Counted from the stretch's first letter, positions 1,047-58,056 are shown. The stretch: DNA of 64,000 nt from Candidatus Nanopelagicales bacterium (GCA_037045455.1 JBAOIN010000003.1:14410-78409), one strand, 5' to 3'. A program made the numbers and translations. Notes: generated by a model from the sequence alone, not told the origin.

Positions 1047-1120
1047 CGTTTGTCGCGTTGTTGGTGCTAAACCCGGCGTGTCGCGCCGACAACGCAACAG
1101 CCAGGGCAACTTCGCGACAA
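1047..1120 (+). repeat. Family A nested-palindrome intergenic repeat, copy 1
   Basis: cgTTTGTCGCGTTGTTGG-10nt-GGCGTGTCGCGCCGACAACGCAACAG-6nt-CAACTTCGCGACAA. It aligns along its full length with copies at 32414, 40615 and 52337(rc). It starts 16 nt after the stop at 1031. Confidence 0.8.
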
Positions 1121-1251
1121 TGCGGCGCAGTTCGGCCCACCGCGAGCCGAGCGCCCGGGCCCGATGGACCACAGTCGGCCGCGGTGCGGCCGAGCCCCCG
1201 GCAGGAACCGTCGGCCCTGCGGGCCTCCTCCCGAATCCTGCAGCATGGCAC

Positions 1252-1285
1252 AAAGCTGAGGGCCCCACTGGGGCCTCTCGGCTTT
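1252..1285 (-). terminator. Hairpin immediately 3' of tRNA-Arg (candidate terminator)
   Basis: On the minus strand, aaagccgagaggcccc-agt-ggggccctcagcttt directly follows the tRNA 3' end. The stem has two mismatches or wobbles and is followed by a TTTG run. Confidence 0.45.
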
Positions 1286-1286
1286 G

Positions 1287-1358
1287 TGCCCCCGGCAGGA
1301 TTCGAACCTGCGCGCATGGCTCCGGAGGCCACTGCTCTATCCCCTGAGCTACGGGGGC
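1287..1358 (-). tRNA. tRNA-Arg (anticodon CCG)
   Basis: The reverse complement folds by hand into a 72-nt cloverleaf: GCCCCCG-TA-GCTC-AGGGGATA-GAGC-A-GTGGC-CTCCGGA-GCCAT-GCGC-GCAGG-TTCGAAT-CCTGC-CGGGGGC-A. The anticodon loop CT-CCG-GA gives CCG. CCA is not encoded. Confidence 0.93.
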
Positions 1359-1427
1359 TTGGGGTGATTCCACCCTAGCAACCGGCGGTCACGCAGTTCC
1401 TTGGCGGGCGCGGGTACCTTGGGCAGT

Positions 1428-1991
1428 GTGCGGTGGCGGCTCCTGATCTGCGTCGTGATGCTTGCCGCGTGCGATCAGCTCCAACCCGCTCCGCATCCGA
1501 CGGCATTGCCCGGGGCATTTCCGACCGGCCCGCCGGACGCCGGCACCACCATCGCCGGCCAGCCCTGGGACCTGTGCACCAAGAAGCAACTCAAGACCTA
1601 CCCGCCGGTGCTCGACAAGCCGGCCACGACGTACTACGCGGGCCCGTGGTGCCGCAGCGAGGACGGCGGCACCGCCTTCTTGTGGGTTTATGCCAAGCCC
1701 TTGTTCAACGGCGAGTTGCCGGAGGAGATCCGCTCGTACGTCAACCAGGACGCAGCTCTACTGGCCCGGGGCCTGCGCACGACGGGCTACTCGATGATCA
1801 GTTCCTCCCCGCGTGGCACCGACGTGCGGTACGAAGCGCGGCGTCCGACCTCACCCAACGTAGTGCGCGTCGAGGTGCTCGGGGAGAATCCGCCGCCGCA
1901 GGGCCAGACCTATGCGGGGACCGATCCGCTGCGGCTGGGCGTCGCGGTCCGCAAGGCAGGACCCACGGATACCCCCGCACCCACCCCCTAG
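1428..1991 (+). CDS. Putative lipoprotein, unknown function
   Basis: Lies in ORF 1401-1991. GTG 1428 gives VRWRLLICVVMLAAC with an L-A-A-C lipobox. No recognisable domain. The start could also be 1401. Confidence 0.6.
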   Translation: MRWRLLICVVMLAACDQLQPAPHPTALPGAFPTGPPDAGTTIAGQPWDLCTKKQLKTYPPVLDKPATTYYAGPWCRSEDGGTAFLWVYAKPLFNGELPEEIRSYVNQDAALLARGLRTTGYSMISSSPRGTDVRYEARRPTSPNVVRVEVLGENPPPQGQTYAGTDPLRLGVAVRKAGPTDTPAPTP

Positions 1992-2001
1992 TCTTGAATG
2001 C

Positions 2002-3648
2002 ATGACGCCTGACGCACTGGTTGCCGCCATAACCGCCGCTCTGGCTGAAGTGCCTGAGACCCGCGACCTCGACGTCGACGTGCGTGTGGAACGGCCGAAG
2101 AACCGCGACCACGGTGATTGGGCCACCAACGTGGCGCTCGTGAGCGCCAAGCGCGCTGGCCTGCCGCCGCGCGACCTCGCTGCGAAACTGGTGGCCGCGC
2201 TTCAGACGAACGAAGGCATCGCGCGGCTCGACATCGCTGGCCCGGGTTTCATCAACATCACGCTGGCCGCCGACGCACAGGGCCGCATCGCCGCCGACAT
2301 CGTCGCGGCCGGGAGCGCCTACGGGCGCATCGACGCATTGTCCGGAACTGCTGTGAACCTTGAATTCATTTCCGCCAATCCGACCGGTCCACTGCACCTG
2401 GGCCACACCCGCTGGGCGGCGGTCGGCGATGCCATGGCGCGGGTGCTGGCCGCTGCCGGCGCCGAGGTGGACCGGGAGTTCTACATCAACGACCGCGGCG
2501 TGCAGATGGACAAGTTCGGCATGTCGCTCGAGGCTCGCGCGGTGGGTGAGCAACCGCCGGAGGGCGGCTACCAGGGGGAGTACATCAAGGACCTCGCCGA
2601 GCGGATCGTGGCCAACGACCCGGGCATTCTCGATCTGCCGGCAGATCAGCGGTGGGTGGCCTTCCGGGAGGCCGGCTATGCCTTGCAACTGCAGCAGCAG
2701 AAGGACGTCCTCGACAACTTCCGCACCCACTTCGACGTGTGGTACTCCGAGCGGTCGCTGCACGAGTCAGGTGCCGTCGACCGAGGAATGGCGAAACTGC
2801 GCGAGCAGGGCCACGTCTTCGAAGAGGACGGTGCGGTGTGGCTTCGCACCACGGACTTCAGCGACGACAAGGATCGCGTGCTGATCAAGGCCGACGGCGA
2901 ACTCACCTACTTCGCGTCAGACACCGCCTATTACGTGGACAAGCGGGCCCGCGGCTTCGACATCTGCGTGTACCTGCTCGGCGCCGACCACCACGGCTAC
3001 GTCAACCGGCTGCGGGCCGTTGCCGCGTGTGCTGGTGACGATCCGGACTACAACATCGAGATCCTGATCGGGCAGCTCGTAAAGATGTTCAAGGGCGGCG
3101 AGGAGGTCCGGCTGTCGAAGCGGACGGGCGCCATGATCACGCTGGAAGACCTGGTGGACGAGGTGGGTGTCGACGCCGCCCGCTACACGCTGATCCGCTA
3201 CCCGGCCGACTCGCCGCTGATGATGGACCTGGACCTGCTGGTTTCGCGCACGAACGAGAACCCGGTCTACTACGTGCAGTACGCCCATGCCCGGATCGCC
3301 TCAGTGCTGCGCAACGCCACCGACCTGGGCATCGACTGGCGGACGGCGGAGTTCGACCCAGGTCTGCTTGAGCACGAACGGGAGAGCGCGCTGCTCGGCG
3401 TGCTCGCGGACTTCCCGCGGATCATCGCCACGGCTGCTGAACTGCGCGAACCGCACCGGGTCTGCCGCTACCTCGAGGAGGTGGCCACGGCCTACCACAA
3501 GTTCTACGACTCCTGCCGTGTGCTGCCCAGGTCCGACGAGGAGTTGTCCGGGCTGCACGTCGCGCGGTTGTGGCTGTGTGCGGCATCCCGTCAGGTCATC
3601 GCCAACGGCCTGGATCTGTGCGGGGTGACGGCGCCGGAGCGGATGTGA
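2002..3648 (+). CDS. argS: Arginine--tRNA ligase
   Basis: Has the class-I HIGH motif PTGPLHLGH and conserved blocks YYVQYAHARI and HRVCRYLEE. ATG 2002 (MTPDALVAAI) was chosen inside ORF 1912-3648. Confidence 0.95.
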   Translation: MTPDALVAAITAALAEVPETRDLDVDVRVERPKNRDHGDWATNVALVSAKRAGLPPRDLAAKLVAALQTNEGIARLDIAGPGFINITLAADAQGRIAADIVAAGSAYGRIDALSGTAVNLEFISANPTGPLHLGHTRWAAVGDAMARVLAAAGAEVDREFYINDRGVQMDKFGMSLEARAVGEQPPEGGYQGEYIKDLAERIVANDPGILDLPADQRWVAFREAGYALQLQQQKDVLDNFRTHFDVWYSERSLHESGAVDRGMAKLREQGHVFEEDGAVWLRTTDFSDDKDRVLIKADGELTYFASDTAYYVDKRARGFDICVYLLGADHHGYVNRLRAVAACAGDDPDYNIEILIGQLVKMFKGGEEVRLSKRTGAMITLEDLVDEVGVDAARYTLIRYPADSPLMMDLDLLVSRTNENPVYYVQYAHARIASVLRNATDLGIDWRTAEFDPGLLEHERESALLGVLADFPRIIATAAELREPHRVCRYLEEVATAYHKFYDSCRVLPRSDEELSGLHVARLWLCAASRQVIANGLDLCGVTAPERM

Positions 3649-4457
3649 GCCGGGTTGCGCTGATCACCGGAGCCTCATCCGGAATCGGTGCTGCGACTGC
3701 GCGGTTGCTGCATTCCCACGGATACCGAGTGGTGCTGGTCGCACGCTCTGCCGATGCACTGCAGGCGTTGGCCGACGAGCTCGGGGATGGGGCGTGGGCG
3801 CGGCCCTGCGACGTCTCGGACCTCGCTTCCTTGCCCGGTCTCGTGCAAGAGGCCGTCGAGCACTTCGGCACCCTGGACGTTCTGGTCAATAACGCCGGCG
3901 TGCATCACCGGGGATCGATGCTGCGTCACACGCCCGAGCAATTGGCCGAGATGATTACCGTCAACACCGCAGCGCCGATTGCCCTGACCCGGATCGCGGC
4001 AGACTTCATGCCACCCGGCTCGGTGGTGGTGAACGTGGCCAGCCTGGCTGGGAAACTGCCGGTGCCCGGGGCAGCGACCTACTCGGGGAGCAAAGCGGGC
4101 TTGCGGTTCTGGGCGATGGCGGCTGCCGAGGACCTCGCTGCCCGCCAAATCCGGATCGCCAGCATCAACCCGGGTCCAGTGGACTCCGGCTTTCTCGAGA
4201 CCGACCTCGACAACGTGACACCGATGACCTTCAGCCAGCCGATGAGCACGGTGGAGCAGTGCGCGCAGGCGGTGTTGCGGGCGATCGAGAGCGAGGTGGC
4301 CGAGATCGACCTGCCGTTCGCCTCCGGCAAGCTGGCCACGCTGGGCTATGTAGCACCGCCCCTGCGCCGCTTGCTTCGTCCCGTGCTGGAGAAGCGTGGG
4401 GCCCGCGTGAAGGAGCAGTTGCGGAATCGCAAACGTGCGGATACGGGCCACATATGA
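3645..4457 (+). CDS. Short-chain dehydrogenase/reductase (SDR)
   Basis: Has TGASSGIG Rossmann and NNAG motifs and the catalytic YSGSK. The GTG 3645 start overlaps the argS stop (GTGA). Confidence 0.85.
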   Translation: MSRVALITGASSGIGAATARLLHSHGYRVVLVARSADALQALADELGDGAWARPCDVSDLASLPGLVQEAVEHFGTLDVLVNNAGVHHRGSMLRHTPEQLAEMITVNTAAPIALTRIAADFMPPGSVVVNVASLAGKLPVPGAATYSGSKAGLRFWAMAAAEDLAARQIRIASINPGPVDSGFLETDLDNVTPMTFSQPMSTVEQCAQAVLRAIESEVAEIDLPFASGKLATLGYVAPPLRRLLRPVLEKRGARVKEQLRNRKRADTGHI

Positions 4458-4533
4458 CCCCGATCCACACGTCTAGTTAGAGGGCACGCACAGAACGATG
4501 GATTCGGGTCACATCTGGCCCCGATCCATGCAG
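4449..4533. repeat. Local direct and inverted repeat between the SDR stop and lysA (element G)
   Basis: cacatatgaccccgatcca (4449) is repeated as cacatctggccccgatcca (4510), 17 of 19 identical. The inverted copy atggattcgggtc (4498) can pair with ggccccgatccat (4517). Confidence 0.55.
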
Positions 4534-4574
4534 AATCCCTTTAGCTGAGGCTCGCTGGCACATACCCTGAACCC

Positions 4575-5963
4575 ATGCCCGCCCACCCCGCCGGACCGCG
4601 CCACGAGGACATCCTGCATGCCGCCGCATTGGGCGAGCCCCCGCAGGACCTCAACGCCCTCACCGCAGGAGTCTGGCCGCTGACTGCGGGCCGTCAGAAC
4701 GGGACCCTGACCATCGCCGGCGTGCCCGTGACCCAAGCAGTGACCGAGTTCGCAAGCCCGTTGTTCGTGATCGACGAGGACCATTTCCGCAACGAAGCCC
4801 GGTCCTACGTGCAGGCCTACGAGGGGGCGGACGTCTACTACGCAGCCAAGGCGTTCCTGACCGGCACCATTGCCCAGTGGGCCGACGCCGAGGGTTTGCG
4901 GATCGACGTCTGCACCATGGGCGAGATGGAGATCGCGCTGCGGGCCGGCGTAGATCCCCAACGCATCCTGTTCCACGGCAACAACAAGAGCGTGGCCGAA
5001 CTGCGGCATGCGCTCGACGCGGGCATCGGGCGCATCGTGGTGGATTCGTTCGACGAGATCTCCCGCCTGTCGGCACTGGCCGCCGAGACTGGGACCAGGC
5101 CCGAGGTCCTCGTCCGGGTCACCGTCGGCGTCGAGGCGCACACCCACGAGTTCATCGCCACCGCCCATGAGGATCAGAAATTCGGGCTGGCGCTGGCCGA
5201 TGGTGTCGCTGCCAAAGCCGCGCAGCAGGTGGCGCAGGACCCGCATCTGAATCTGCGTGGTCTGCACAGCCACATCGGCTCCCAAATCTTCGATGCCGCC
5301 GGTTTCGAAGTGGCAGCCCACCGCATGGCCGGGTTGGTGGCTGAACTCACAAGCCAGGGACACCCCATTGCCGAACTGAACCTCGGCGGCGGCATGGGGA
5401 TCGCCTACACCAACGACGACGATCCGCCGCAGGTCGCCGACATGGCGGCGCAGTTGCGCGCGATCGTGACCCGCGAATGCGAACTCGCGGGCGTCGAGGT
5501 TCCGCGCCTCGCGGTGGAACCCGGACGAGCGATCGTTGGCGGTGCCGGTATCACGGTGTATGAGGTCGGCACGGTCAAGCCCGTCGACCTCGGCGGCCGA
5601 TCACGGCTTTACGTATCTGTCGACGGGGGCATGAGCGACAACATCCGGACCGCTTTGTACGGCGCGGACTACACGGTGGTCCTCGCGAATCGCGAATCGA
5701 CCGCGCCGCCAGTGCTCGCCCGCGTGGTTGGCAAGCACTGCGAGAGCGGCGACGTCGTGGTGCGCGACGCTTGGCTGCCTGCAGACATCACGGCCGGGGA
5801 CCTGCTGGCCGTCGCAGCGACGGGCGCCTACTGCCGCAGCATGGCCAGCAACTACAACTACCTGCCCCGGCCCGGCGTGGTGGCCGTGCAGCATGGCGCG
5901 GCACAGGTGGTGCTGCGCCGGGAGACCCTCGACGACATGTTCGCCGCCGACCCCGCGTTGTGA
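4575..5963 (+). CDS. lysA: Diaminopimelate decarboxylase
   Basis: Has the PLP-lysine region YYAAKAF plus HSHIGSQ, GGGMGI, EPGRAIV and CESGD motifs. Lies in the conserved argS-lysA-hom order. Confidence 0.93.
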   Translation: MPAHPAGPRHEDILHAAALGEPPQDLNALTAGVWPLTAGRQNGTLTIAGVPVTQAVTEFASPLFVIDEDHFRNEARSYVQAYEGADVYYAAKAFLTGTIAQWADAEGLRIDVCTMGEMEIALRAGVDPQRILFHGNNKSVAELRHALDAGIGRIVVDSFDEISRLSALAAETGTRPEVLVRVTVGVEAHTHEFIATAHEDQKFGLALADGVAAKAAQQVAQDPHLNLRGLHSHIGSQIFDAAGFEVAAHRMAGLVAELTSQGHPIAELNLGGGMGIAYTNDDDPPQVADMAAQLRAIVTRECELAGVEVPRLAVEPGRAIVGGAGITVYEVGTVKPVDLGGRSRLYVSVDGGMSDNIRTALYGADYTVVLANRESTAPPVLARVVGKHCESGDVVVRDAWLPADITAGDLLAVAATGAYCRSMASNYNYLPRPGVVAVQHGAAQVVLRRETLDDMFAADPAL

Positions 5964-6014
5964 GCAGATCAGGCGCAAAGCGACCACCGAACCCGCCGTG
6001 ACAGACTTGGCAGC

Positions 6015-9171: not shown

Positions 9172-9172
9172 G

Positions 9173-9275
9173 GGCGTTCGAAACCTGGCCCGATGGGCCC
9201 GTTCCGGACGCGACACGCCGTGCGGCCAGCCAAAAGGCGGGGAGTCGTGGTTCTGGCGGCCACGTTTCGAACGCC
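9173..9275. repeat. Long-armed inverted repeat between convergent thrB and the CoA-binding gene (element F)
   Basis: The arm ggcgttcgaaacctggcc (9173-9190) pairs with ggccacgtttcgaacgcc (9258-9275), 17 of 18 complementary, around a 67-nt spacer. Confidence 0.7.
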
Positions 9276-11581: not shown

Positions 11582-11592
11582 CACCCTTCGGC

Positions 11593-11626
11593 AAGGGGCG
11601 GTTGGGCTGCGGCTCACCGCCCCTTT
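11593..11626 (+). terminator. Hairpin terminator after rho
   Basis: aaggggcgg-16nt-ccgcccctt, a 9-bp perfect stem starting 12 nt after the rho stop and followed by tgtcgcg. Confidence 0.5.
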
Positions 11627-12954: not shown

Positions 12955-13079
12955 TTGAGGACTGAACCCTTCCCCAACGACCACCGGCGGGAATGCCCGC
13001 ACCACCCGCACCGTTACACTGGACGAGCCTTCCGGTTCACGCCCATCCGGCGACCCGGAGGAGCCATTAAGGAGATTCC

Positions 13080-20334: not shown

Positions 20335-20347
20335 TTGCAGCAACACG

Positions 20348-20380
20348 AAGTGCCCATCACCCGCGCGGTGGTGGGCACTT
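20348..20380. terminator. Bidirectional hairpin between the convergent SBP gene and the YrdC-family gene
   Basis: aagtgcccatcacc-cgcgc-ggtggtgggcactt, a 14-bp stem with one mismatch, followed by a T-rich tgctgt. Confidence 0.55.
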
Positions 20381-20402
20381 TGCTGTATCCCGTTAGCCGC
20401 GT

Positions 20403-21124: not shown

Positions 21125-21184
21125 TTCACCGTTTGTGCTTTGTTGCACCGTTCCGATCGGTGCAAAACTGTCGCAACGGTGAAA
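21125..21184. repeat. Family B nested-palindrome repeat, copy 1
   Basis: The outer stem TTCACCGTT pairs with AACGGTGAA. The inner perfect 8-bp hairpin is ttgcaccg-ttccgat-cggtgcaa. Lies in the divergent YrdC/glyA intergenic region. Confidence 0.75.
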
Positions 21185-28636: not shown

Positions 28637-31421
<2,785 letters not shown>

Positions 31422-31454
31422 CCGCCCGAGGTCCGCACCACTCACTCGTCCCCG

Positions 31455-31509
31455 CGTTTTGTCGCATTGTCGTCGTTAACTTCGGCGTGTCGTGACAACT
31501 TCGCGACAG
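31455..31509 (+). repeat. Family A repeat, copy 2 (short variant lacking the central CGACAACGCGACAG module)
   Basis: cgTTTTGTCGCATTGTCGTCG-8nt-GGCGTGTCGTGA-CAACTTCGCGACAG. It ends 4 nt before the stop of the minus-strand DUF559 gene. Confidence 0.75.
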
Positions 31510-31512
31510 AAG

Positions 31513-32370
31513 TCAGGGGCGCCACCCCTGCTGTCGCAGGGCTTCGCTCACGAAACCCACTGCCACGTGGATTCTGCGGGTCATCTCCTTGGTGATCACA
31601 ACGTGCCGCCAGCCGTGCGCTGCATAGTCATTGCGCGTGGCCGCGTCCTGGTGCCGTTGGCGGCCCTGGTCGTGATGCTCACCGTCGTAATCAGCGATGA
31701 CTCGGAAAGGTTCCCACACGAAGTCCCCGCATCCCAGCCACGCGCCCTGCTCGATGATGTCCTTGTTCAACTCGGGCCTGGGCAGGCCCGCTTGTATCAT
31801 GGCTACCCGGAACAGCGACTCCTGCGCCGAAGCGCTGCCCGGATCGGCGAGCTCCGCGGCTTTCGACAATGATCGCGCATGACGCACACCTGATGTGTCC
31901 AGCAGTTCCTCGCGGGTACAGTGCCGCCGCCGGAGCAGAACGTCAGCTATTGCCACGAGATCCGGCACCGACAGCGAACCCGCCAGGTCTTGCCACGTGC
32001 GCAGACCGTCGGTGACGCGCATACCCTTGTGCACGATCACCGAGTGAGCAATCTCGCGACTGTGCCACGTGATTCCCTGTCTGGATCCTCTGGCCTTGCC
32101 AGGCGGCACGGTGACGTGAAAGGGCCGGGGCTCGATCTTCGGCAAGGGCAGGTCCAAGATCTTCGCGGCGGTCGTGTGCGAGAAGACAGCGTGGGGAGCC
32201 AGCAGCAATGCGTAGGCATCCAACTCCGCCTGCCAGCCAATCTGCTCGGTGCGAACCCCACGTGTGGGTTTGTCCAGACCGGCGAGTTGGATTTGGCGGT
32301 ACGACATCCCGCCACCGCCAGCGCGGGAAACTGTGAAAGGGCCCATGGCGCAACCCAAACCGGAATTCAT
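31513..32370 (-). CDS. DUF559-type endonuclease-domain protein (AbiEi-like N-terminus plus Vsr/restriction-endonuclease-like C-terminus)
   Basis: The C-terminal block ...GDFVWEPFRVIADYDGEHHDQGRQRHQDAATRNDYAAHGWRHVVITKEM... is typical of DUF559 proteins. The start may be M1 (32370) or M9 (32346). Confidence 0.7.
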   Translation of the reverse strand: MNSGLGCAMGPFTVSRAGGGGMSYRQIQLAGLDKPTRGVRTEQIGWQAELDAYALLLAPHAVFSHTTAAKILDLPLPKIEPRPFHVTVPPGKARGSRQGITWHSREIAHSVIVHKGMRVTDGLRTWQDLAGSLSVPDLVAIADVLLRRRHCTREELLDTSGVRHARSLSKAAELADPGSASAQESLFRVAMIQAGLPRPELNKDIIEQGAWLGCGDFVWEPFRVIADYDGEHHDQGRQRHQDAATRNDYAAHGWRHVVITKEMTRRIHVAVGFVSEALRQQGWRP

Positions 32371-32413
32371 ATGGGCAGACGCGTTTGGTGCGGATCTGTG
32401 GACCGAGCCGTCC

Positions 32414-32490
32414 GGTTTTGTTGCGTTGTTGGCGTCAACTGCGGCGTGTCGGGCCGACTTCGCAACAATGCGGTCAACTTCGCAACAAAA
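32414..32490 (+). repeat. Family A repeat, copy 3
   Basis: ggTTTTGTTGCGTTGTTGG-10nt-GGCGTGTCGGGCCGACTTCGCAACAA-6nt-CAACTTCGCAACAAAA. It ends 4 nt before the pduO stop. Confidence 0.8.
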
Positions 32491-32493
32491 CCC

Positions 32494-38954: not shown

Positions 38955-39042
38955 TGTCCGGATTTGCAACGCGTTGGACGCCCGGGCACTGATTGCCGGC
39001 GATTCCGGCCGAGTGGGCGCGAACGTGTTGCAAATCCGGACA
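38955..39042. repeat. Family C terminal-inverted-repeat element, copy 1
   Basis: tgtccggatttgcaacgcgtt (38955) pairs with aacgtgttgcaaatccggaca (to 39042), 20 of 21 complementary, around a 46-nt core containing gattccggcc. Confidence 0.8.
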
Positions 39043-40614: not shown

Positions 40615-40690
40615 GCGTTTTGTTGCGATGTCGTTGGTATCCTCGGCGTGTCGCAACGACAACGCGACAGCCCGGACAACTTCGCGACAA
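40615..40690 (+). repeat. Family A repeat, copy 4 (most complete)
   Basis: gcgTTTTGTTGCGATGTCGTTGG-7nt-GGCGTGTCGCAACGACAACGCGACAG-6nt-CAACTTCGCGACAA. It fills the gap between the convergent nucS stop (40600) and the GNAT stop (40692). Confidence 0.85.
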
Positions 40691-41578: not shown

Positions 41579-43244
41579 ATGGCTGAGAAGACGCTGGTGA
41601 TCGTCGGGGTGGGCACGGTCGGGACGCAGATTGCGGGCCTGGCCAAGGACGCGGGCTGGAGTGTCCTCGGAATCGAAAAGGATGCTGCCAGCGCGCAGGC
41701 CGCGGCGGAACGTACGGGTGTGAGCGTGACGGCTGAGGTCGCCGAGGCCAAGGGGGCTGGACTGGTCATCGAGTGCCTGCCCGAGAAGGCTGCCCTGAAG
41801 CATGCGGTGTTCGGTGAGGTCGCGGCGCTGGTCGCCGAGGACGCCGTCCTCGTGACGACCGCGACCGCACTGTCGGTCACTGACTTGGCGCTGGCCACCG
41901 GCCGCCCTAACCGCGTGCTCGGCCTGTCGATGCCGCACGACCCGGCTCGCACCCACGCCGAACTCATCCGCCCGGACTTCGCCGACGCCGATGCCGTCGA
42001 AAGCCTGCAGGCGTTCCTGGCCGACGTCGGCCGCACGGCCACGGTCGTGCGTTCCAAGCCGGGCTACATCGCCGACGGTCTGCTCTTCGGCTACCTGAAC
42101 CACGCGGTCACCATGTACGAGGCCGGATACGCCAGCCGCGACGACATCGACGCGGCCATGCGCTTCGGCTGCGGCTACCCGATCGGCCCGCTGGCGCTGC
42201 TCGACAAGATCGGCATCGACACCGCCTACGACGTGTTGGATGCCCTCTACGCCAGCACCGGCCGGCGCCTGCACGCGCCGGCTCCCATCCTCAAGCAGAT
42301 GATCGCCGCCGGACAGGACCGGTGACAAGGCGGGCCGGGGCTTCTACGGCGGCGACGAGCAGACCGAGACGGCTGCTGGGACCGGCGACCTGCGTGCCGT
42401 GCGCACGGTCGGCGTTGTGGGTACTGGCACCATGGCCTCCGGCATTGTCGAGGTGTTCGCCAAGTCCGGCTACGACGTGGTGTTCGTGGCCCGCAGCGAG
42501 GAGAAGGTGGCCGGGGTGCAAGCGGCCGTCACGAAGTCGCTGGACAAGGCCGTGGCCAAGGGCAAGATGACCGAGGAAGTCCGCGCCGAGGTGCTCGGTC
42601 GGTTGAACGGAGCCACCGAGCGGGAGGCACTGGGCGACGTGGACCTGGTCGTCGAAGCCATCGTGGAGAACCTCGAGGTGAAGCTCGAGTTGTTCCGCGA
42701 TCTCGACCGCATCTGCAAGCCGGGCGCGATCCTGGCCACGACCACCTCGAGCCTGCCGGTGGTCGAGATGGCCGCAGTGACCGGCCGGCCGCAGGACGTC
42801 GTGGGCATGCACTTCTTCAACCCGGCGCCGATCATGAAGCTGGTCGAGGTGGTCAGCCCGCTGACCACGGGTCAGGACGTAACCGACACTGTGGTCGCGC
42901 TGTGCAAGCAGCTGGGCAAGGTGCCCGTGAAGTGTGGTGACCGAGCCGGCTTCATCGTCAACGCGCTGCTGTTCCCCTACCTGAACGACGCGGTGCTGCT
43001 GCTGGAATCGCACTACGCGACGGCCGACGAGATCGACGAGGTCATGACCAAGGGTGCTGGACTGCCGCTGGGGCCGTTCGCGCTGCTCGATGTCGTGGGC
43101 AACGACGTCTCGCTGGCCATCGAGCAGGTGCTGCACAGCGAGTTCCGGCTGCCCGAACTGGCGCCCGCCCGGCTGCTCGAGCAGATGGTCGAGGCCGGCT
43201 ACCTCGGACGCAAGACCGGCCGTGGGTTCCGCTCCTACCATTAA
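41579..43244 (+). CDS. Tandem-domain 3-hydroxyacyl-CoA dehydrogenase, reading frame interrupted at about 42315
   Basis: The first, degenerate 3HCDH unit reads ...ILKQMIAAG | RTGDKAGRGFYGGDEQ...RTVGVVGTGTMASGIVE... into a second, canonical unit (ORF 42399-43244). An extra A in ggacAggacc shifts the frame. Confidence 0.8.
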
Positions 43245-43250
43245 CCCGGC

Positions 43251-43350
43251 GGTGAAGTCGCAATCCATGAGCATTCTGGGCATGGGTTAGCACGCCGGAC
43301 GCTGAAAACCCGCCCGTTGTGCTCACGGATGCCCGGAATGCTCACGGATC
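43251..43350 (+). repeat. Family D 100-nt long-hairpin repeat, copy 1
   Basis: Aligns gap-free with 56031-56130 (79 of 100 identical by hand count). The arm gagcattctgggcatgggttagc pairs with gctcacggatgcccggaatgctc. Starts 7 nt after the stop at 43244. Confidence 0.85.
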
Positions 43351-43410
43351 GGCCGGGCAACGCGCGGCTTGCTGGCGCGTTGTAGCCGGAACGAGTGGTT
43401 CGCTAAGGAC

Positions 43411-43659: not shown

Positions 43660-43678
43660 GGCGGTGGCCCCAGGATCC

Positions 43679-43724
43679 TTCACCGTTGTCGAAGAACGGT
43701 GATGGATTGTCCAAACGGTGAAGT
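43679..43724. repeat. Family B repeat, copy 2 (short)
   Basis: TTCACCGTT-gtcgaag-AACGGTGA-tggattgtcc-AAACGGTGAAGT, between convergent stops at 43659 and 43736. Confidence 0.7.
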
Positions 43725-49052: not shown

Positions 49053-49126
49053 CGGGGTCCGGCATGTTGATCATCCCGCGAGAGGGGCGTGTCAGGTGCG
49101 ACCGTGAGCGGGTATCGGCTATTCGG

Positions 49127-49215
49127 TGTCCGGAATTGCAACGCGTTCGGCGAAGAAGGGCGCTTTCGGGGCCGAATCCGGCGGTTTTGCCCCTAACGTT
49201 TTGCGAATCCGGACA
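49127..49215. repeat. Family C terminal-inverted-repeat element, copy 2
   Basis: tgtccggaattgcaacgcgtt (49127) pairs with aacgttttgcgaatccggaca (to 49215). The core contains ggccgaatccggc. A degenerate fragment, tgtccggtcttgcagcatttgcggg, follows at 49317. Confidence 0.8.
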
Positions 49216-49461
49216 CGCACCCGCAGTCAGGTACCCCATCAGCAGAAGGTACGCAGACTCGACCTGCTGCACCGCCGACTGCATCAGAAGAATTATCGAA
49301 AGTGGTGAAAGCAGTCTGTCCGGTCTTGCAGCATTTGCGGGTCTAGTGCCTGTCGCCGACTATCAGCGATGGCCGCAAGGGCTCCGGCGCAACCACGCCG
49401 CGGCCGGTCGCCCATCTACCCCGGGGTTGCCGGGCCACCGCTCATGGGAAAGGCTGAGGGC

Positions 49462-50543: not shown

Positions 50544-50602
50544 GGCTAGTCCAACAACAATGCGGCAGAACGGCATTCGACCCCTCAAAGTAGGCTGACT
50601 GC

Positions 50603-52333: not shown

Positions 52334-52336
52334 CCG

Positions 52337-52440
52337 CTGTCGCGAAGTTGCCCGCACTGTCGCGTTGTCGTCACGACACGCCGAGATTACGGACGACATC
52401 GCGACAAAACGATTACGGACGACATCGCGACAAAACAGCG
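52337..52440 (-). repeat. Family A repeat, copy 5 (reverse orientation, with an internal perfect 26-bp tandem duplication)
   Basis: The reverse complement reads TTTTGTCGCGATGTCGTCCGTAATC (x2)-GGCGTGTCGTGACGACAACGCGACAG-6nt-CAACTTCGCGACAG. The duplicated unit gattacggacgacatcgcgacaaaac sits at 52385-52410 and 52411-52436. Confidence 0.85.
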
Positions 52441-52444
52441 ATGG

Positions 52445-54168: not shown

Positions 54169-54302
54169 AACCCCTCCAGTTCCGGAACCTACTTGCACGC
54201 TAGCCGGTTGCCGACGGGGCTCGGTCGGGAGGGTGAGCCACTACGACATGCGACCGGCCATGCGCGGACAGTAACTTTGCCGTGTCGAAACATGGAGGAT
54301 TC

Positions 54303-55916
54303 ATGAGGCGTCTGTGGGCCCCGCTGGGTGCAGGAGCATTGCTGGTTGGTGGCGTCGTGATGGCCGCGCCAGCCAGTGCCGAGCCCTACCCCTACACGAT
54401 CGAGAAGGAGAACACCGGCCCGGCCTCGATCGTGGCGGGTTCGGACCAAGTCGCCGAGTTCACGATCACCGTCTCGTACAACAGCGAGCCGCAACCCATC
54501 GAGGGACCCGCGATGGCGTCCTTCTGGGACACCCTGCCTTACGGATTGGTGCTCGCTGAGATTCCCGCAGGGTGTACGGGCACGGTCGGGACCAGCCAGC
54601 TGGAGTGCGACGTGGACTTCAGCGAGGAGAACTCGGCCAAGGTCGTGGTGAAAGCCACCGCCCAGGACTGGGCGCGACCCGGGACGTATACGAACTGCGC
54701 CTATCTTGCCCTGGGTGCCTCCGAATTCGATCCTCAGCAGTACCAGGTCTGCGGGTCGGGCGCGCCGCCGGTTGAGCAGATCGACCAGACCGTGGCCTCG
54801 GCCTCGGTCGAGGTGACCAACGTCGCGGACATGCAGCTGGCTGCCAGCCAGCCTGGTCAGGTCGACCCTGGTGCCGGTGCCCAGATCACGTGGACGGCCA
54901 GCAACGGCGGGCCCTCGGGCGCAGACCTGCCGCTGACCCTGACTGCGACCCTGCCCGCAGGGGTCACCTGGGTCGGTGGGGGCGCAGCGCCGTGGGAGTG
55001 CAGCGCGAGTGGCCAGGATGTGACCTGCACGTTCAACCCGACTCCTCCGGACGCGCCGCAGATGATCTGCGCTCCCGTGATGGGTGCCGAGAACATCGGC
55101 TGCCCGGTGCTCGTGGTCCCGCCCGGCGCGGAGATCCCACCCGTGACCTGGAACGTCATGACAGCCAAGCCGGGCACGGTGGCGAAGTATGACGTGACCG
55201 CCAAGGTGACCTCGCTGACCGAGGACAGCACGCCTGCGAACAACTCCGCCGTCTCGACGATCAACGTCACCCCTGTCGATCTTGCGGTTTCCAAGTCCGC
55301 AGGGTCCCCGGTGTTCGTGGGAGACGAGGCGACCTGGACGGTGAACGTGGGCAACGTCGGCACGGTCGACGACGCCGGCAAGCTGACCGTCGTGGACACG
55401 CTACCCAGCGCTGCGACGTTCGTTGCCGCCTCCGGTGACGGGTGGACGTGTGAGGCCGCAGGGCAGAAGGTCACCTGCACGCGCGACGGTCTGGCCAAGG
55501 GTGCCAGCACTGACATCGTGGTGCGCTCGAAGATGACCAGCCGCGGGGATGCGAAGAACTCGGCAACTGTCTCCTCGCAGTCCTACGAAAAGAACACGGC
55601 GAACAACAGCGCCGAGAAGACGGTGAAGGTGGTCCGGACCGAACAGACGGCCGCGGGCCTGCCCGCCACGCCGACCCGTGTGAAGTCGGGCAAGACCGAG
55701 CAGGGTCAGAAGCTGACGACTCGAGTGCGGTGCCGGCCCGTCAAGGCCAGTGCGGCTGGTGAGGTGTCGTTCTGCAAGGTCACGCGCGGCAACGGCGTAG
55801 TACGGATCAAGGTCAAGGGCAGCCAGCCGATGAAGGTCACGGTTATTCAGACCGCGCGCGGCACGGCGAAGCTGAAGCCGTTCGTGCAGCGCAAGACCTA
55901 CATCGTCAAGCCGTAG
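54303..55916 (+). CDS. Secreted repeat protein with DUF11-like (conserved repeat domain) beta-sandwich modules
   Basis: Has the signal peptide MRRLWAPLGAGALLVGGVVMAAPASA. Repeated modules of the type ...ITWT.SNGGPS.A..L.L..TLPAGVT... and ...WTVNVGNVGTVDDAG.LTVVDTLP.... Confidence 0.65.
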   Translation: MRRLWAPLGAGALLVGGVVMAAPASAEPYPYTIEKENTGPASIVAGSDQVAEFTITVSYNSEPQPIEGPAMASFWDTLPYGLVLAEIPAGCTGTVGTSQLECDVDFSEENSAKVVVKATAQDWARPGTYTNCAYLALGASEFDPQQYQVCGSGAPPVEQIDQTVASASVEVTNVADMQLAASQPGQVDPGAGAQITWTASNGGPSGADLPLTLTATLPAGVTWVGGGAAPWECSASGQDVTCTFNPTPPDAPQMICAPVMGAENIGCPVLVVPPGAEIPPVTWNVMTAKPGTVAKYDVTAKVTSLTEDSTPANNSAVSTINVTPVDLAVSKSAGSPVFVGDEATWTVNVGNVGTVDDAGKLTVVDTLPSAATFVAASGDGWTCEAAGQKVTCTRDGLAKGASTDIVVRSKMTSRGDAKNSATVSSQSYEKNTANNSAEKTVKVVRTEQTAAGLPATPTRVKSGKTEQGQKLTTRVRCRPVKASAAGEVSFCKVTRGNGVVRIKVKGSQPMKVTVIQTARGTAKLKPFVQRKTYIVKP

Positions 55917-55919
55917 GCA

Positions 55920-55991
55920 GACAAACACCCCCGTTTGTGCGATTCACCCCCGGTTGAACTGGGGTGAATCGCACAACTGGGGGTGTTTGTC
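55920..55991. repeat. 31-nt-arm near-perfect hairpin directly after the DUF11 gene (element E)
   Basis: gacaaacacccccgtttgtgcgattcacccc-cggttgaact-ggggtgaatcgcacaactgggggtgtttgtc, 29 of 31 complementary. Starts 4 nt after the stop. Shares GTTTGTGCGA with family B. Confidence 0.8.
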
Positions 55992-56030
55992 ACTCCGCAG
56001 AATTGCTCGGCGGCAATGCGTGCTCGCCAG

Positions 56031-56130
56031 CGTGAAATCGCAATCGGTGAGCATACCGGGCATCGGTTAGCATTCCCGGCGCCAAAACCCCGCCCGTGCG
56101 GCTAACAGGTGCCCGGAATGCTCACGAATC
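56031..56130 (+). repeat. Family D 100-nt long-hairpin repeat, copy 2
   Basis: Gap-free alignment to 43251-43350 (79 of 100). The arm gagcataccgggcatcggttagc pairs with gctaacaggtgcccggaatgctc. Confidence 0.85.
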
Positions 56131-56161
56131 AGCCCTTTAGGGCATCAAGAAATTGCGGATC

Positions 56162-56584
56162 TCAGTGCCCGGAACCCGGCTCCACAAGCTCGATCAGCAC
56201 GCCACCGCAGTCCTTGGGGTGCGCGAAGTTGACCCGGGAACCGGCAGTGCCGCGCTTCGGGGCTTCGTAGAGCAGCCGTACGCCCGCGTCCCGCAGCTCG
56301 TCGGCGGCCTTCTCGATGTCGTCCACCCGGTAGGCGACCTGCTGGATGCCCTCCCCGTTGCGGGCGAGGAACTTCCCGATCGGGGAGTCCTCCTTCAGCG
56401 GCGCGAGCAGCTGGATACAGGAACCGCTGTCGCCGACGGCCATCATGGCCTCCCGAACGCCCTGCTCTTCATTGACTTCCTCGTGCACGAGGTCCATTCC
56501 GAACGCGTCCTGGTAGAAGGCAATCGCCTTGTCCAGATCCTGTACTGCCAGTCCAACGTGGTCGATCGCTGTGACGAAACCCAT
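56162..56584 (-). CDS. mce: Methylmalonyl-CoA epimerase (VOC/glyoxalase family)
   Basis: 140 aa: IDHVGLAV.DLD.AI.FY...FG......E.V.EQGV......V.......QLL.P......I.KFL...GEG.QQVAYRVDDI pattern. Confidence 0.85.
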   Translation of the reverse strand: MGFVTAIDHVGLAVQDLDKAIAFYQDAFGMDLVHEEVNEEQGVREAMMAVGDSGSCIQLLAPLKEDSPIGKFLARNGEGIQQVAYRVDDIEKAADELRDAGVRLLYEAPKRGTAGSRVNFAHPKDCGGVLIELVEPGSGH

Positions 56585-56797
56585 GGGGATATCGTGGCAT
56601 TAGGGAAGCACTGATTGATGCTGTTCCGAGCGAAACGTGGCTGAGGGTACGAGATGCAAGCCACACATCGTGGGTCATAGCGGCGCTATGGCACGAGATG
56701 TGGGGTGACGCAGATCGCGGGCTCGGGCACGGTGCAGCCGGGACATGATGAGTCAGTGGTTCCTGAGTTCTCACCACGAGATATGGGAGGTCTGGCC

Positions 56798-57982
56798 ATG
56801 GCCGGAAACGTCATCGTCGCTGGAGCCCGCACCCCGATGGGGCGCCTGCTGGGCTCGCTTAAAGGCTTCTCGGCCGCAGACCTCGGGGGTGTGGCCATCA
56901 AGGCGGCTCTTGAGCGCTCCGGTGTGACGCCCGAGCAGGTCGACTACGTGATCATGGGCCACGTGCTGCAGGCCGGCACTGGACAGATCACCGCCCGCCA
57001 GGCTGCGGTCAAGGCCGGCATCGGCATGGACGTCCCGGCGCTGACCATCAACAAGGTCTGCCTGTCCGGCCTGGACGCCATCGCGCTGGCCGACCAGCTC
57101 ATTCGCGCCGGTGAGTTCGAGATCGTCGTGGCCGGCGGCATGGAGTCCATGACCAACGCTCCGCACCTGCTCATGGGCTCGCGTGAGGGCGTGAAGTACG
57201 GCGACTGGAAGGCGATCGACTCGATGGCCTTCGATGGCTTGACCTGCGCGTTCGACCAGTGCGCGATGGGTGAGTCGACGGAGGGCTACCTCAGCAAGTA
57301 CCCGAAGGTGACGCGCGAGCGCCAGGATGCGTTCGCCGCACGCTCGCACCAGCTCGCCGCTATCGCCGAGAAGAACGGCGCGTTCGGCGAGGAGATCGTT
57401 CCCGTCGAGATCCCGCAACGCAAGGGCGACCCGATCGTGTTCGCGACCGACGAGGGTGTCCGGGCCGACACGACCGCAGAGAGCCTGGGCAAGCTGCGGG
57501 CCGCCTTCGCAAAGGACGGTTCGATCACCGCTGGTAACGCGTCGCAGATTTCCGACGGCGCCGCTGCGGTAGTCGTGATGAGCAAGGCGAAGGCCGAGGA
57601 GCTGGGTCTCACGTGGCTGGCCGAGATCGGTGCGCACGGAGTTGTGGCCGGGCCAGACGCGTCGCTGCACCTGCAGCCGGCCGAGTCGATCAAGGCTGCG
57701 TGCGCGAAGGACGGCATTGCGGTCAGTGACCTGGACCTGGTGGAGATCAACGAGGCGTTCGCTGCGGTGGGCTTGGCCAGCACCGATGAGCTCGGGATCA
57801 ACGAGGACATCGTCAACGTCAACGGCGGCGCGATCGCACTCGGTCACCCGCTGGGCATGTCTGGCGCGCGGGTCGTGCTGACGCTGGCTCTGGAGCTCAA
57901 GCGCCGTGGTGGCGGCGTCGGTGCCGCTGCGCTGTGCGGTGGCGGCGGTCAGGGCGACGCGCTGATCGTCCGGGTTCCGTAG
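56798..57982 (+). CDS. Acetyl-CoA C-acetyltransferase (thiolase II)
   Basis: Has the active-site Cys in [12 protein letters not shown] and the C-terminal [19 protein letters not shown] and [12 protein letters not shown] 56798 has the RBS gggagg, inside ORF 56705-57982. Confidence 0.93.
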
Positions 57983-57997
57983 GCCGTCAGCCTCGAA

Positions 57998-58056
57998 TTC
58001 ACCGTTTGTGCGAATGCACCGTTCCGAACGGTGAAGTCTGCGCCAAACGGTGAAGT
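57998..58056. repeat. Family B nested-palindrome repeat, copy 3
   Basis: The outer stem TTCACCGTTTG pairs with CAAACGGTGAA (perfect 11 bp). The inner hairpin is caccgtt-ccg-aacggtg. It fills the gap between convergent stops at 57982 and 58060. Confidence 0.8.

What the first reader, a model, noticed from the sequence alone, without database searches (positions are those of the whole stretch)
1047..58056. Unusually dense set of hairpin-forming intergenic repeats (at least 15 elements, about one per 4 kb)
I found 15 non-coding elements of 46-104 nt.
- Family A: 1047-1120, 31455-31509, 32414-32490, 40615-40690, 52337-52440 (reverse complement).
- Family B: 21125-21184, 43679-43724, 57998-58056.
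- Family C: 38955-39042, 49127-49215.
- Family D: 43251-43350, 56031-56130.
- Singletons: E 55920-55991, F 9173-9275, G 4449-4533.

All are nested imperfect palindromes, usually an outer stem enclosing an inner hairpin. About 11 of 15 lie within about 20 nt of a stop codon, often exactly filling the gap between convergent genes.

Different families share short strings: GGTGAAGTC in B and D, GTTTGTGCGA in B and E, CCGGAAT in C and D, and TTTGTCGCG in A and beside the rho terminator. That hints at a common origin or a common recognising machinery. No transposase or RAYT-like gene is in the window.

The pattern resembles REP/BIME or MITE systems. I do not recognise these sequences as any described actinobacterial family, though I cannot search.
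Basis: seen in the sequence. Interest (0 to 1): 0.7.

Follow-up and report, generated by a model that had tools for sequence, protein, structure and literature searches.

The report
Palindromic intergenic repeats with partner nuclease gene
This stretch of an uncultured actinobacterium is packed with real, genome-wide families of hairpin-forming repeats sitting just after genes, and the commonest family brackets a nuclease gene in a layout repeated across actinobacteria, which suggests a REP-like repeat system driven by a new kind of enzyme.

Summary
All 15 elements are at the stated coordinates, and I found a sixteenth (H, 56600-56764). They occupy 15 of 35 intergenic gaps and 8 of 9 convergent gaps. 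They are true dispersed repeats. Family A occurs at about 50 distinct places in 491 kb of non-redundant, mostly same-species DNA. It is never inside a gene, lies a median of about 17 nt from a stop codon, and shows no orientation bias. D, G, B, E and F also have copies elsewhere. The elements differ between strains and between related species. None matches Rfam, and they lack the 3' U-tract of canonical terminators.

This palindrome-gene-palindrome layout recurs, with genome-specific palindromes, in 13 of 14 gene copies examined. In Tsukamurella tyrosinosolvens and Arthrobacter sp. StoSoilB13 the flanking palindromes are also dispersed as solo copies.

The best reading is REP/MITE-like mobile palindromes, with family A tied to this nuclease gene much as REPs are tied to RAYT transposases. 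The repeats themselves are shown. The enzyme link rests on association only, and its direction is unresolved.

The parts
1047..1120 (+). Family A copy A1 (long form). Lies 15 nt after the stop codon at 1031, in a convergent gap with tRNA-Arg.
31455..31509 (+). Family A copy A2 (short form). Lies between the atpC stop and the stop of the AbiEi/DUF559 gene. It is the downstream flank of that gene.
31513..32346 (-). Gene for an AbiEi-like wHTH domain fused to a DUF559 (Vsr-like PD-(D/E)XK) nuclease domain. The called start is 32307, the likely start is 32346, and the longest ORF runs to 32370. It is bracketed by A2 and A3.
32392..32404 (-). GGTCCACAGATCC, a DnaA-box-like motif between the upstream palindrome and the start codon. 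It is conserved upstream of the homologous genes in the other genomes.
32414..32490 (+). Family A copy A3 (long form). Lies 3 nt from the stop of the cob(I)alamin adenosyltransferase gene (32494). It is the upstream flank of the AbiEi/DUF559 gene.
40615..40690 (+). Family A copy A4. Fills the NucS/GNAT convergent gap. A degenerate remnant sits at the orthologous site in the related species L003.
52337..52440 (-). Family A copy A5, with a duplicated 26-nt 5' unit. Fills the ABC-F/PNPOx convergent gap.
21125..21184 (.). Family B copy B1, in the divergent gap between Sua5 and GlyA.
43674..43724 (.). Family B copy B2 (partial), in the Rv1322-like/OsmC convergent gap.
57998..58056 (.). Family B copy B3. 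Fills the thiolase/fn3 convergent gap. Short-read contigs end here.
38955..39042 (.). Family C copy C1. Has 21-nt terminal inverted repeats and a unique core, and sits in a divergent gap. It is absent from the orthologous gap of L003.
49127..49215 (.). Family C copy C2. Same termini as C1 but a different core. Lies 74 nt after the SDR gene stop.
43251..43354 (.). Family D copy D1 (core 43263-43349), 6 nt after the stop at 43244.
56031..56134 (.). Family D copy D2 (core 56043-56129), in the CLIPPER/glyoxalase convergent gap.
55920..55991 (.). Family E copy: a near-perfect 31-bp-arm palindrome 3 nt after a stop codon. Relatives are in L151 and L115.
9173..9275 (.). Element F. Exactly fills the ThrB/CoA-binding convergent gap. 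Its termini (GCGTTCGAAAC..TTTCGAACGC) recur in L126.
4425..4533 (.). Family G copy. Overlaps the stop codon at 4457. Seven more places elsewhere, including the strain-variant filler in L093.
56600..56764 (.). Five further full copies. It abuts family D in L102 and L153.

Best explanation
The window carries at least 16 copies of at least 8 families (A-H) of non-coding imperfect palindromes, 46-165 nt long. These are dispersed, mobile or recently mobile repeats of this genome. They are of the REP/BIME/MITE kind and accumulate just downstream of genes.

Family A is the hairpin that brackets a single-copy gene (31513-32346, minus strand). The gene encodes an AbiEi-type DNA-binding domain fused to a DUF559 (Vsr-like PD-(D/E)XK) nuclease domain.

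Proposed mechanism:
1. The protein recognises its own palindrome, as a hairpin or cruciform, through the AbiEi domain, and cuts there.
2. That either copies the palindrome to new sites in trans, as RAYT does for REPs, or moves the whole palindrome-gene-palindrome cassette.
3. A moved cassette then collapses to a solo palindrome by recombination between its two direct flanks.
4. Copies survive where they do no harm, in 3' untranslated gaps. Once there they probably act as 3'-end RNA hairpins.

What is shown: the repeat families are real and dispersed, they sit at gene 3' ends, they turn over between strains and species, and the gene-palindrome association holds across Actinomycetota.

What is inferred: nuclease activity, recognition of the palindrome, the direction of the relationship (mobiliser or homing into palindromes), and any RNA-level role.

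My confidence is about 0.9 that these are genuine dispersed REP/MITE-like repeats. It is about 0.65 that the AbiEi/DUF559 gene and family A are functionally linked, and about 0.4 that the protein is what spreads the solo copies.
For: 1. Dispersal. A strict family-A pattern found 66 metagenome stretches, which reduce to 43 distinct places. Profile searches found about 50 places for A, 15 for D, 8 for G, 6 for B, 7 for H (6 full plus one partial) and 3 for E, in 491 kb of non-redundant DNA.

2. Placement. No family-A copy is inside a gene. Of the classifiable copies, 13 are in convergent gaps, 24 in tandem gaps and 2 in divergent gaps. The median distance to a stop codon is about 17 nt. Orientation relative to the upstream gene is 11 same to 8 opposite.

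3. Turnover.
- The gap 55917-56161 (E plus D2) is replaced in another strain by a different filler with a G-type copy, although the flanks are 98-100% identical.
- An orthologous gap holds A in one species and an F-like element in another.
- C1 is absent in L003.

4. Palindrome-gene-palindrome layout with genome-specific palindromes. It is seen in the window, L003, L155, L156, L157, L158, L160, L162, L163, L170, L171, L172 and L177. In five of these loci of 12-21 kb (L003, L155, L156, L160, L162), the two flanks are the only copies of that palindrome.

5. Solo copies of the flank palindrome in cultured genomes.
- T. tyrosinosolvens has 8 solos in 7 other records, sitting in convergent gaps or after stop codons.
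- Arthrobacter sp. StoSoilB13 has two paralogous genes, each with its own palindrome family. These give 35 and 10 strand-counted places.

6. The protein.
- AbiEi models match the N-terminal half at E = 5e-12.
- DUF559 matches 17 of 25 homologues.
- E163, D195, D208, H212 and D221 are invariant.
- The structure model has pLDDT 89. Its best matches are Rv2827c and the catalytic domain of homing endonuclease I-Bth0305I, TM 0.72.

7. Many homologues sit on contigs of about 1.0 kb, the size of the unit (window 31455-32490 is 1036 nt). This implies that assemblies break in the flanks.
Against: - There is no biochemical evidence, and no insertion event has been caught.
- No target-site duplication was identified.
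- Within-family covariation is no better than in shuffles.
- One allele in the same species (L166-L169) has the gene with only the downstream palindrome.
- In four loci the flank palindrome has no solo copy within 12-21 kb.
- Only one such gene was found in 491 kb, so families B-H have no identified partner.
- The metagenome loci were chosen because they contain family A, so its density there is biased upward.
- The sharp replacement of the whole atpC/adenosyltransferase gap between strains fits a cassette that inserts next to pre-existing hairpins as well as it fits one that spreads them.
Confidence: 0.55

Rival explanations
1. The repeats are ordinary MITEs or REPs, moved by a conventional enzyme encoded elsewhere in the genome: a DDE transposase of a parent IS, or an HUH RAYT. 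The AbiEi/DUF559 gene would then be a selfish, homing-endonuclease-like cassette. It would insert at or beside such palindromes, or be insulated by them, and would not spread them.
For: - The catalytic domain resembles the homing endonuclease I-Bth0305I.
- The cassette is replaced as a unit between strains whose flanking genes are 99% identical.
- The homologue in L156 sits in a different genomic context.
- Families C and F have conserved termini with variable cores, as MITEs do.
- Only about 0.5 Mb of the genome could be examined, so a RAYT or IS elsewhere is not excluded.
Against: - No multicopy IS-like gene or transposase turned up in 491 kb.
- In four independent cases the dispersed family is exactly the palindrome that flanks the gene: the window species, T. 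tyrosinosolvens, and two families in Arthrobacter sp. StoSoilB13. The two Arthrobacter paralogues each pair with a different family.
- Insertion into a palindrome would leave half-sites. What is seen is two complete palindromes.
Confidence: 0.25
2. The elements are mainly host-serving signals, either transcription terminators or 3'-end mRNA stabilisers. Their similarity would reflect selection for good hairpins rather than mobility.
For: - 11 of 15 window elements lie within 20 nt of a stop codon, and 8 of 9 convergent gaps are filled.
- Divergent gaps are nearly avoided.
- Canonical terminator-like sites are not enriched in this genome: 6 against 8.2 expected, and 7 against 9.1. Other hairpins may therefore do the job.
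Against: - About 50 places sharing 80-90% identity over 55-85 nt cannot arise by convergence.
- There is no 3' U-tract. Family A has its U-run 5' of the stem on both strands.
- B1, C1 and H sit in promoter-side gaps.
- Orientation is random.
- The genome also has unique, canonical terminators at 11590-11625 and 20335-20402.
- This reading explains where the elements are kept, not where they came from.
Confidence: 0.07
3. The solo palindromes are chromosomal binding sites for the AbiEi/DUF559 protein or for a nucleoid protein. They would have been recruited for regulation or DNA organisation, much as REPs bind IHF and gyrase, and the nuclease domain would be inactive or used for repair.
For: - From published work on AbiEi (not tested here), AbiEi proteins are sequence-specific repressors that bind inverted repeats.
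- The N-terminal half matches AbiEi.
- A conserved DnaA-box-like motif lies upstream of the gene.
Against: - The acidic and histidine residues of the nuclease domain are invariant across 24 homologues.
- The copies are placed at gene ends rather than at promoters.
- Turnover between strains is not expected for a regulon.
Confidence: 0.08

Closest known systems
REP/BIME elements and REPIN-RAYT systems (E. coli, Pseudomonas, Stenotrophomonas)
   Same: - Extragenic imperfect palindromes in high copy number, with several families per genome.
- Placed at gene 3' ends and in convergent gaps, sometimes in mosaic clusters (H plus D, E plus D2).
- Strain-to-strain variation.
- A single-copy, mostly syntenic gene bracketed by two copies of the family, with a different family for each paralogue.
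   Different: - Length is 55-165 nt rather than 20-40 nt.
- There is no GTAG or CGTC terminal tag.
- The host phylum is Actinomycetota, which is not among the phyla listed for GTAG/CGTC REPs in PMC3733652.
- The bracketed gene encodes an AbiEi plus DUF559 PD-(D/E)XK protein, not an HUH/Y1 RAYT.
- The two flanks are in direct rather than inverted orientation where this can be read (window, L156, L158).
MITEs (Correia/NEMIS, ERIC, RUP, SMAG, Nezha)
   Same: Size range 50-170 nt, terminal inverted repeats, folding into long hairpins, intergenic position, and effects on assembly. Families C and F keep their termini while the core varies.
   Different: No target-site duplication and no parent IS with matching ends was found in 491 kb. 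Family A is conserved through its centre (CTCGGCGTGTCG), not only at its termini.
IS200/IS605 elements and their palindrome-associated derivatives (PATEs)
   Same: A gene bounded on both sides by hairpins in the same orientation. Solo hairpin derivatives are scattered in intergenic DNA.
   Different: The enzyme fold is PD-(D/E)XK with a winged-helix domain rather than an HUH transposase. No TnpB-like gene is present.
Free-standing Vsr-like homing endonucleases (I-Bth0305I)
   Same: The catalytic domain fold matches (Foldseek probability 1.00, TM 0.72 on the target). The cassette also behaves like one, differing between strains whose flanks are 99% identical.
   Different: It is not in an intron, intein or phage, and there are no relatives in viral contigs. 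It is bracketed by complete palindromes, and it is syntenic across four species plus a second allele within the window species.
AbiE type IV toxin-antitoxin system (AbiEi; Rv2827c structure 1zel)
   Same: The N-terminal half matches AbiEi profiles (E = 5e-12). The best whole-chain structural match is Rv2827c.
   Different: There is no AbiEii nucleotidyltransferase partner; the neighbours are atpC and an adenosyltransferase gene. The C-terminal domain is a DUF559 nuclease.
U-tract-less ('I-shaped') hairpin terminators of high-GC actinobacteria
   Same: GC-rich hairpins directly after stop codons, often between convergent genes.
   Different: Here the hairpins are members of sequence families with tens of copies. 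Some also lie in promoter-side gaps.

Membership tests
REP sensu stricto (GTAG- or CGTC-tagged, RAYT-associated) | Short palindrome of 20-40 nt | tested here: not met
   The elements are 46-165 nt long. The basic family-A hairpin is about 55 nt.
REP sensu stricto (GTAG- or CGTC-tagged, RAYT-associated) | Conserved GTAG or CGTC tetranucleotide at one end | tested here: not met
   The family-A consensus runs from GTTTTGTYGCG to CGCGACAAAAC. The other families start with TTCACCG, TGTCCGG, GTGAGCA, GACAAAC or GCGTTCG. The definition is taken from PMC3733652.
REP sensu stricto (GTAG- or CGTC-tagged, RAYT-associated) | Extragenic, in many copies, biased to gene 3' ends | tested here: met
   Family A is at about 50 places in 491 kb, none inside a gene, with a median of about 17 nt to a stop codon.
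REP sensu stricto (GTAG- or CGTC-tagged, RAYT-associated) | A RAYT (IS200/IS605-type Y1 HUH) gene flanked by the REPs | tested here: inconclusive
   The called genes of the window carry no Y1 transposase Pfam family. No multicopy gene was found in 491 kb. The rest of the genome could not be scanned. The flanked gene that does exist is of a different superfamily.
MITE | Terminal inverted repeats and a size of 50-500 nt | tested here: met
   All families are palindromic end to end. C and F keep termini of 11-21 nt while the cores vary.
MITE | Target-site duplication flanking each copy | tested here: inconclusive
   No recurrent direct repeat is visible beside the 43 family-A copies. Comparisons of filled and empty sites were too divergent to place the boundaries.
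MITE | A parent IS with the same termini and a transposase | tested here: inconclusive
   None was found in 491 kb. The whole genome was not available.
Intrinsic (Rho-independent) terminator | GC-rich hairpin followed by a 3' U-tract | tested here: not met
   The consensus scan flags only a small hairpin abutting A4. Its site counts are below those of shuffles. Family A ends in ...ACAAAAC followed by GC-rich sequence.
Any Rfam family | Covariance-model match | tested here: not met
   At gathering thresholds only tRNA-Arg matches. At E <= 1 the only match on an element is a spurious hit of mir-802 on E, 28.7 bits against a gathering score of 86.
Integron attC site | RYYYAAC ... GTTRRRY core sites around an imperfect palindrome, downstream of gene cassettes | tested here: not met
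   The family-A ends GTTTTGT and ACAAAAC do not fit either core. The flanking genes are core housekeeping genes such as the atp operon, nucS and thrB. The attC definition is from my own knowledge.
DUF559 / Vsr-like PD-(D/E)XK nuclease (the flanked protein) | Profile match and a nuclease-like fold with conserved acidic residues | tested here: met
   PF04480 matches 17 of 25 homologues, with a best E of 7e-7. The window protein itself is below threshold. E163, D195, D208, H212 and D221 are invariant. The fold matches 3r3p, and there are weak sequence hits to 3hrl and PvuRts1I.
AbiE toxin-antitoxin system (the flanked protein) | AbiEi antitoxin paired with an adjacent AbiEii nucleotidyltransferase toxin | tested here: not met
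   The AbiEi domain is present. The neighbours are atpC and an adenosyltransferase gene, with no AbiEii in any of the loci examined.

The most novel reading that the evidence does not exclude
Actinomycetota carry a REP-RAYT-like system built on a different enzyme. In it, a single-copy AbiEi/DUF559 (PD-(D/E)XK) nuclease gene is bracketed by two copies of a long palindrome that it recognises. It spreads that palindrome (or the whole cassette, which then collapses to solo copies) into the 3' gaps of genes. Each paralogue has its own palindrome family. If this holds, families B-H of this genome should each have a paralogous partner gene elsewhere in the genome.
Probability: 0.4. Interest if true: 0.85.

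Novelty: new variant of a known kind. Interest (0 to 1): 0.7.

Why it matters
Dispersed palindromic repeats are well studied in Proteobacteria. There, one enzyme class (RAYT, an HUH tyrosine transposase) is held responsible, and the CGTC-tagged REPs still have no known enzyme. In Actinomycetota such repeats are barely described.

Three things follow from the results here.
- This genome has a density of palindromic repeats comparable to the repeat-rich Proteobacteria as I recall them.
- It points to a concrete, testable candidate partner of a different superfamily, present in cultured Tsukamurella and Arthrobacter, so binding and cleavage assays are possible.
- It would give a function to a branch of the large DUF559 family.

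There are practical consequences too. The elements break short-read assemblies, since contigs end in them. They also make intergenic regions the most variable part of otherwise 99%-identical strains.

Tried and rejected
- **Strict family-A pattern on species-representative genomes:** no match, because this species is not in that collection. The second scan, with the adenosyltransferase protein, gave one genus-level relative (L003) and otherwise distant relatives, mostly Streptomyces. None of those 79 loci (1.5 Mb) holds a homologue of the nuclease gene.
- **Family A in other collections:** no match in plasmids or viral contigs. The protein family has no relatives in viral contigs.
- **Covariation within family A:** I tested two alternative pairings. 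Both are 86-90% paired but no better than shuffles, so this gives no evidence for or against a selected structure.
- **Covariance model:** not built, because nhmmer profiles already recovered the copies.
- **The nuclease gene as a multicopy IS:** rejected. There is one copy in 491 kb by tblastn and by profile search.
- **Other genes bracketed by same-family pairs:** none found for any family.
- **attC sites, CRISPR and tandem MIRU-like repeats:** considered and rejected on sequence form.
- **TTTGTCGCG next to rho:** this is the tail of an ordinary terminator.
- **Nonomuraea hit (H3):** the reading frame could not be resolved, so I left it out.
- **Organism name:** the tools could not give one beyond 'MAG: Micrococcales bacterium' for the nearest representative.
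- **Literature:** searches for actinobacterial REPs or MITEs, and for DUF559 together with repeats, found nothing relevant.

Full report
**Source and gene map**

The window is 64 kb of 67% G+C DNA. It carries argS, lysA, the thr genes, rho, rpmE, prfA, glyA, the atp operon, murA and nucS.

Contigs holding exactly the same proteins belong to NCBI assemblies GCA_046330555.1 and GCA_040775065.1 and to several metagenome assemblies. They are 97-99% identical to the window.

The nearest species representative is a MAG labelled 'Micrococcales bacterium'. It shares about 80% nucleotide identity and is syntenic with the window (L003).

I transferred the called genes of these contigs to window coordinates to obtain a gene map. 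Elements B1, A2 and A3 are base-for-base identical in an independent assembly.

**Check of the observation**

Families A and D come out of an unbiased repeat search. B and C are confirmed by profile search.

- Eleven of 15 elements are within 20 nt of a stop codon.
- Eight of the 9 convergent gaps hold an element. The ninth (20335-20402) holds a unique, canonical bidirectional terminator.
- B1 and C1 lie in divergent gaps.
- A sixteenth element was missed: H, a 165-nt palindrome at 56600-56764 (fold z-score -7.0), with five further full copies elsewhere.
- In all, 15 of 35 intergenic gaps of at least 25 nt hold a repeat.

Of the 'shared strings', GGTGAAGTC and GTTTGTGCGA exceed chance. CCGGAAT does not. 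The rho-side TTTGTCGCG is the T-tail of a normal terminator.

**Are they real repeat families?**

A strict family-A pattern found nothing among species-representative genomes, because the species is not represented there. In metagenome contigs it found 66 stretches. These reduce to 43 distinct places, one of which (L146) lies inside a gene and looks like a chance match.

I pooled these loci with the window and removed redundancy, which left 491 kb. Iterated nhmmer profiles then gave the following numbers of places:

| Family | Places |
|---|---|
| A | about 50 |
| D | 15 |
| G | 8 |
| H | 7 (6 full, 1 partial) |
| B | 6 |
| E | 3 |
| C | 2 |
| F | 1 |

An F-like element sharing only the termini of F turned up in addition.

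The loci were selected for containing family A, so A is over-represented in this sample. The counts for the other families are unbiased.

Family A has a short form of about 55 nt and a long form with an extra 3' unit. Its centre, CTCGGCGTGTCG, is nearly invariant.

**Placement and orientation**

No profile-detected family-A copy lies inside a gene. Thirteen are in convergent gaps, 24 in tandem gaps and 2 in divergent gaps. The median distance to the nearest stop codon is about 17 nt. Orientation relative to the upstream gene is 11 to 8, which is random. This argues against an oriented RNA motif.

Many short-read contigs end inside the elements.

**Not canonical terminators, and not in Rfam**

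Family A carries its U-run 5' of the stem on either strand and is followed by GC-rich sequence. The consensus terminator scan flags only a small hairpin next to A4, and finds fewer sites than in shuffled sequence.

Rfam gives only tRNA-Arg at gathering thresholds. At E <= 1 nothing credible falls on the elements.

**Turnover**

- Between strains whose flanking genes are 98-100% identical, the whole gap 55917-56161 (E plus D2) is replaced by a different 164-nt filler containing a G-type copy.
- Between two related species, one orthologous gap holds a family-A copy in one and an F-like element in the other.
- C1 is absent from L003. A4 has only a degenerate remnant there.

**The gene between A2 and A3**

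A2 and A3 bracket one gene (31513-32346, minus strand). The unit from A2 to A3 is 1036 nt.

- The N-terminal half of its product matches AbiEi models at E = 5e-12.
- The C-terminal part belongs to DUF559: 17 of 25 homologues hit PF04480.
- The residues E163, D195, D208, H212 and D221 are invariant across homologues.
- The AlphaFold model (pLDDT 89) best matches Rv2827c and, for the C-terminal domain, the catalytic domain of homing endonuclease I-Bth0305I.
- It is single-copy in the 491 kb.

**The same layout elsewhere**

In every other genome I could reach, the homologous gene is bracketed by two copies of a long palindrome whose sequence is specific to that genome:

| Locus | Source | Context |
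|---|---|---|
| L003 | nearest species representative | same atpC/adenosyltransferase position |
| L155, L163 | metagenome contigs | same position |
| L156 | metagenome contig | different context (amtB-glnB/ftsY) |
| L157 | metagenome contig | contig ends inside family-A-like units |
| L158, L160 | metagenome contigs | other contexts |
| L162 | Blastococcus | other context |
| L170 | Arthrobacter sp. ERGS1:01 | plasmid record |
| L171, L177 | Arthrobacter sp. StoSoilB13, two paralogues | plasmid records |
| L172 | Tsukamurella tyrosinosolvens | plasmid record |

In L003, L155, L156, L160 and L162 the flanks are the only copies of that palindrome within 12-21 kb.

The stop codon abuts or overlaps the downstream palindrome. 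In Tsukamurella the annotated start codon lies in the upstream one.

There is one exception. A second allele in the window's own species (L166-L169) has flanks 99% identical to the window, but its gene is only 64% identical in protein, and it has only the downstream palindrome. The whole atpC/adenosyltransferase gap is therefore an exchangeable cassette.

**Solo copies in cultured genomes**

- In T. tyrosinosolvens NCTC13231 the 70-nt flank palindrome has 8 solo copies at 81-88% identity in seven other records. They lie in convergent gaps or just after genes.
- In Arthrobacter sp. StoSoilB13 each of the two paralogous genes has its own palindrome family. These give 35 and 10 strand-counted places on two replicons.
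- L158 has partial copies 6 kb from the gene.

This reproduces, in independent lineages, the pattern seen for family A in the window species.

**Interpretation**

The repeats are REP/BIME/MITE-like dispersed palindromes. That part I consider established.

The gene-palindrome association parallels the bracketing of RAYT genes by their REPs, but with a PD-(D/E)XK nuclease fused to an AbiEi DNA-binding domain. I think a functional link is more likely than not, at about 0.65.

Three things remain open:
- whether the protein spreads the solo copies;
- whether it moves the whole cassette, which then collapses by recombination between its direct flanks;
- whether it is a homing-type gene that targets such palindromes.

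Any terminator or mRNA-stabilising role is an inference from position only.

**Comparison with known systems**

Strict REP membership fails on length and on the terminal GTAG or CGTC tag. No RAYT was seen, although only about 0.5 Mb of the genome could be examined. MITE membership is undecided, because neither a target duplication nor a parent IS was found. attC, intrinsic-terminator and Rfam membership all fail.

The literature held in the library lists GTAG/CGTC REPs in phyla that do not include Actinobacteria. It has no paper linking DUF559 to repeats.

**Limits**

- No complete genome of the species was available.
- The metagenome loci are biased toward family A.
- Gene calls outside the window come from my own codon-usage caller, which recovered 53 of 61 known stop codons.
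- Within-family covariation is uninformative.
- Nothing here is biochemical.

Noticed in passing
It lies in the promoter-side gap upstream of the thiolase gene. In two other loci it directly abuts a family-D copy, forming mosaic clusters.
   Followed up: partly
window 32392-32404 (minus strand); also upstream of the homologous gene in L003, L155, L156, L157, L160, L162, L163, L167, L170, L171: A DnaA-box-like motif lies between the upstream palindrome and the start codon of every AbiEi/DUF559 gene examined. Examples are TTGTCCACA in L160 and L163, TTATCCACA in Arthrobacter, and GGTCCACAG in the window. It could be a promoter, an operator or a true DnaA box.
   Followed up: partly
window 19186, 30398, 30926, 31259-31260, 31356, 31360, 37109, 37390, 37764 and others: Compared with a same-species assembly (L001), the window has 16 single-base insertions and 3 deleted bases. 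Several fall inside atpD, atpC and murA and break their reading frames. These are more likely consensus errors of the source assembly than real pseudogenes.
   Followed up: partly
window 31422-32493 compared with L166-L169: Within one species the whole gap between atpC and the adenosyltransferase gene is an allelic cassette. The flanks are 99% identical, but the enclosed gene is only 64% identical in protein and has different palindromes.
   Followed up: yes
window 55917-56161 compared with L093/L087 1840-2004: A whole intergenic gap is replaced between strains: E plus D2 in one, a 164-nt filler with a family-G copy in the other. The boundaries fall within a few bases of the two stop codons.
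   Followed up: yes
window 13030-13061: Sub-threshold match to the Rfam L31-Actinobacteria ribosomal protein leader (29.4 bits against a gathering score of 35), directly upstream of rpmE (13080). It is probably real.
   Followed up: no
window 11590-11625 and 20335-20402: Two unique, canonical hairpin-plus-T-run terminators, one after rho and one between the SBP and Sua5 genes. The genome therefore also uses ordinary terminators alongside the repeat hairpins.
   Followed up: partly
window 12824/12825 compared with L083 18250-18304: A 53-nt insertion/deletion difference between strains inside a hypothetical gene downstream of padR. It splits the gene call in one assembly.
   Followed up: no
L089, L100, L107, L124, L135, L136 (ends); L087/L093 start at window 57996: Short-read metagenome contigs often end inside or beside the palindromic elements. 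Homologues of the nuclease gene often sit alone on contigs of about 1.0 kb. The repeats therefore act as assembly breakpoints.
   Followed up: partly
L158 9600-9960: Upstream of the AbiEi/DUF559 homologue, the palindrome unit is repeated three times in tandem, at intervals of about 160-170 nt. This forms an array rather than a single flank.
   Followed up: no
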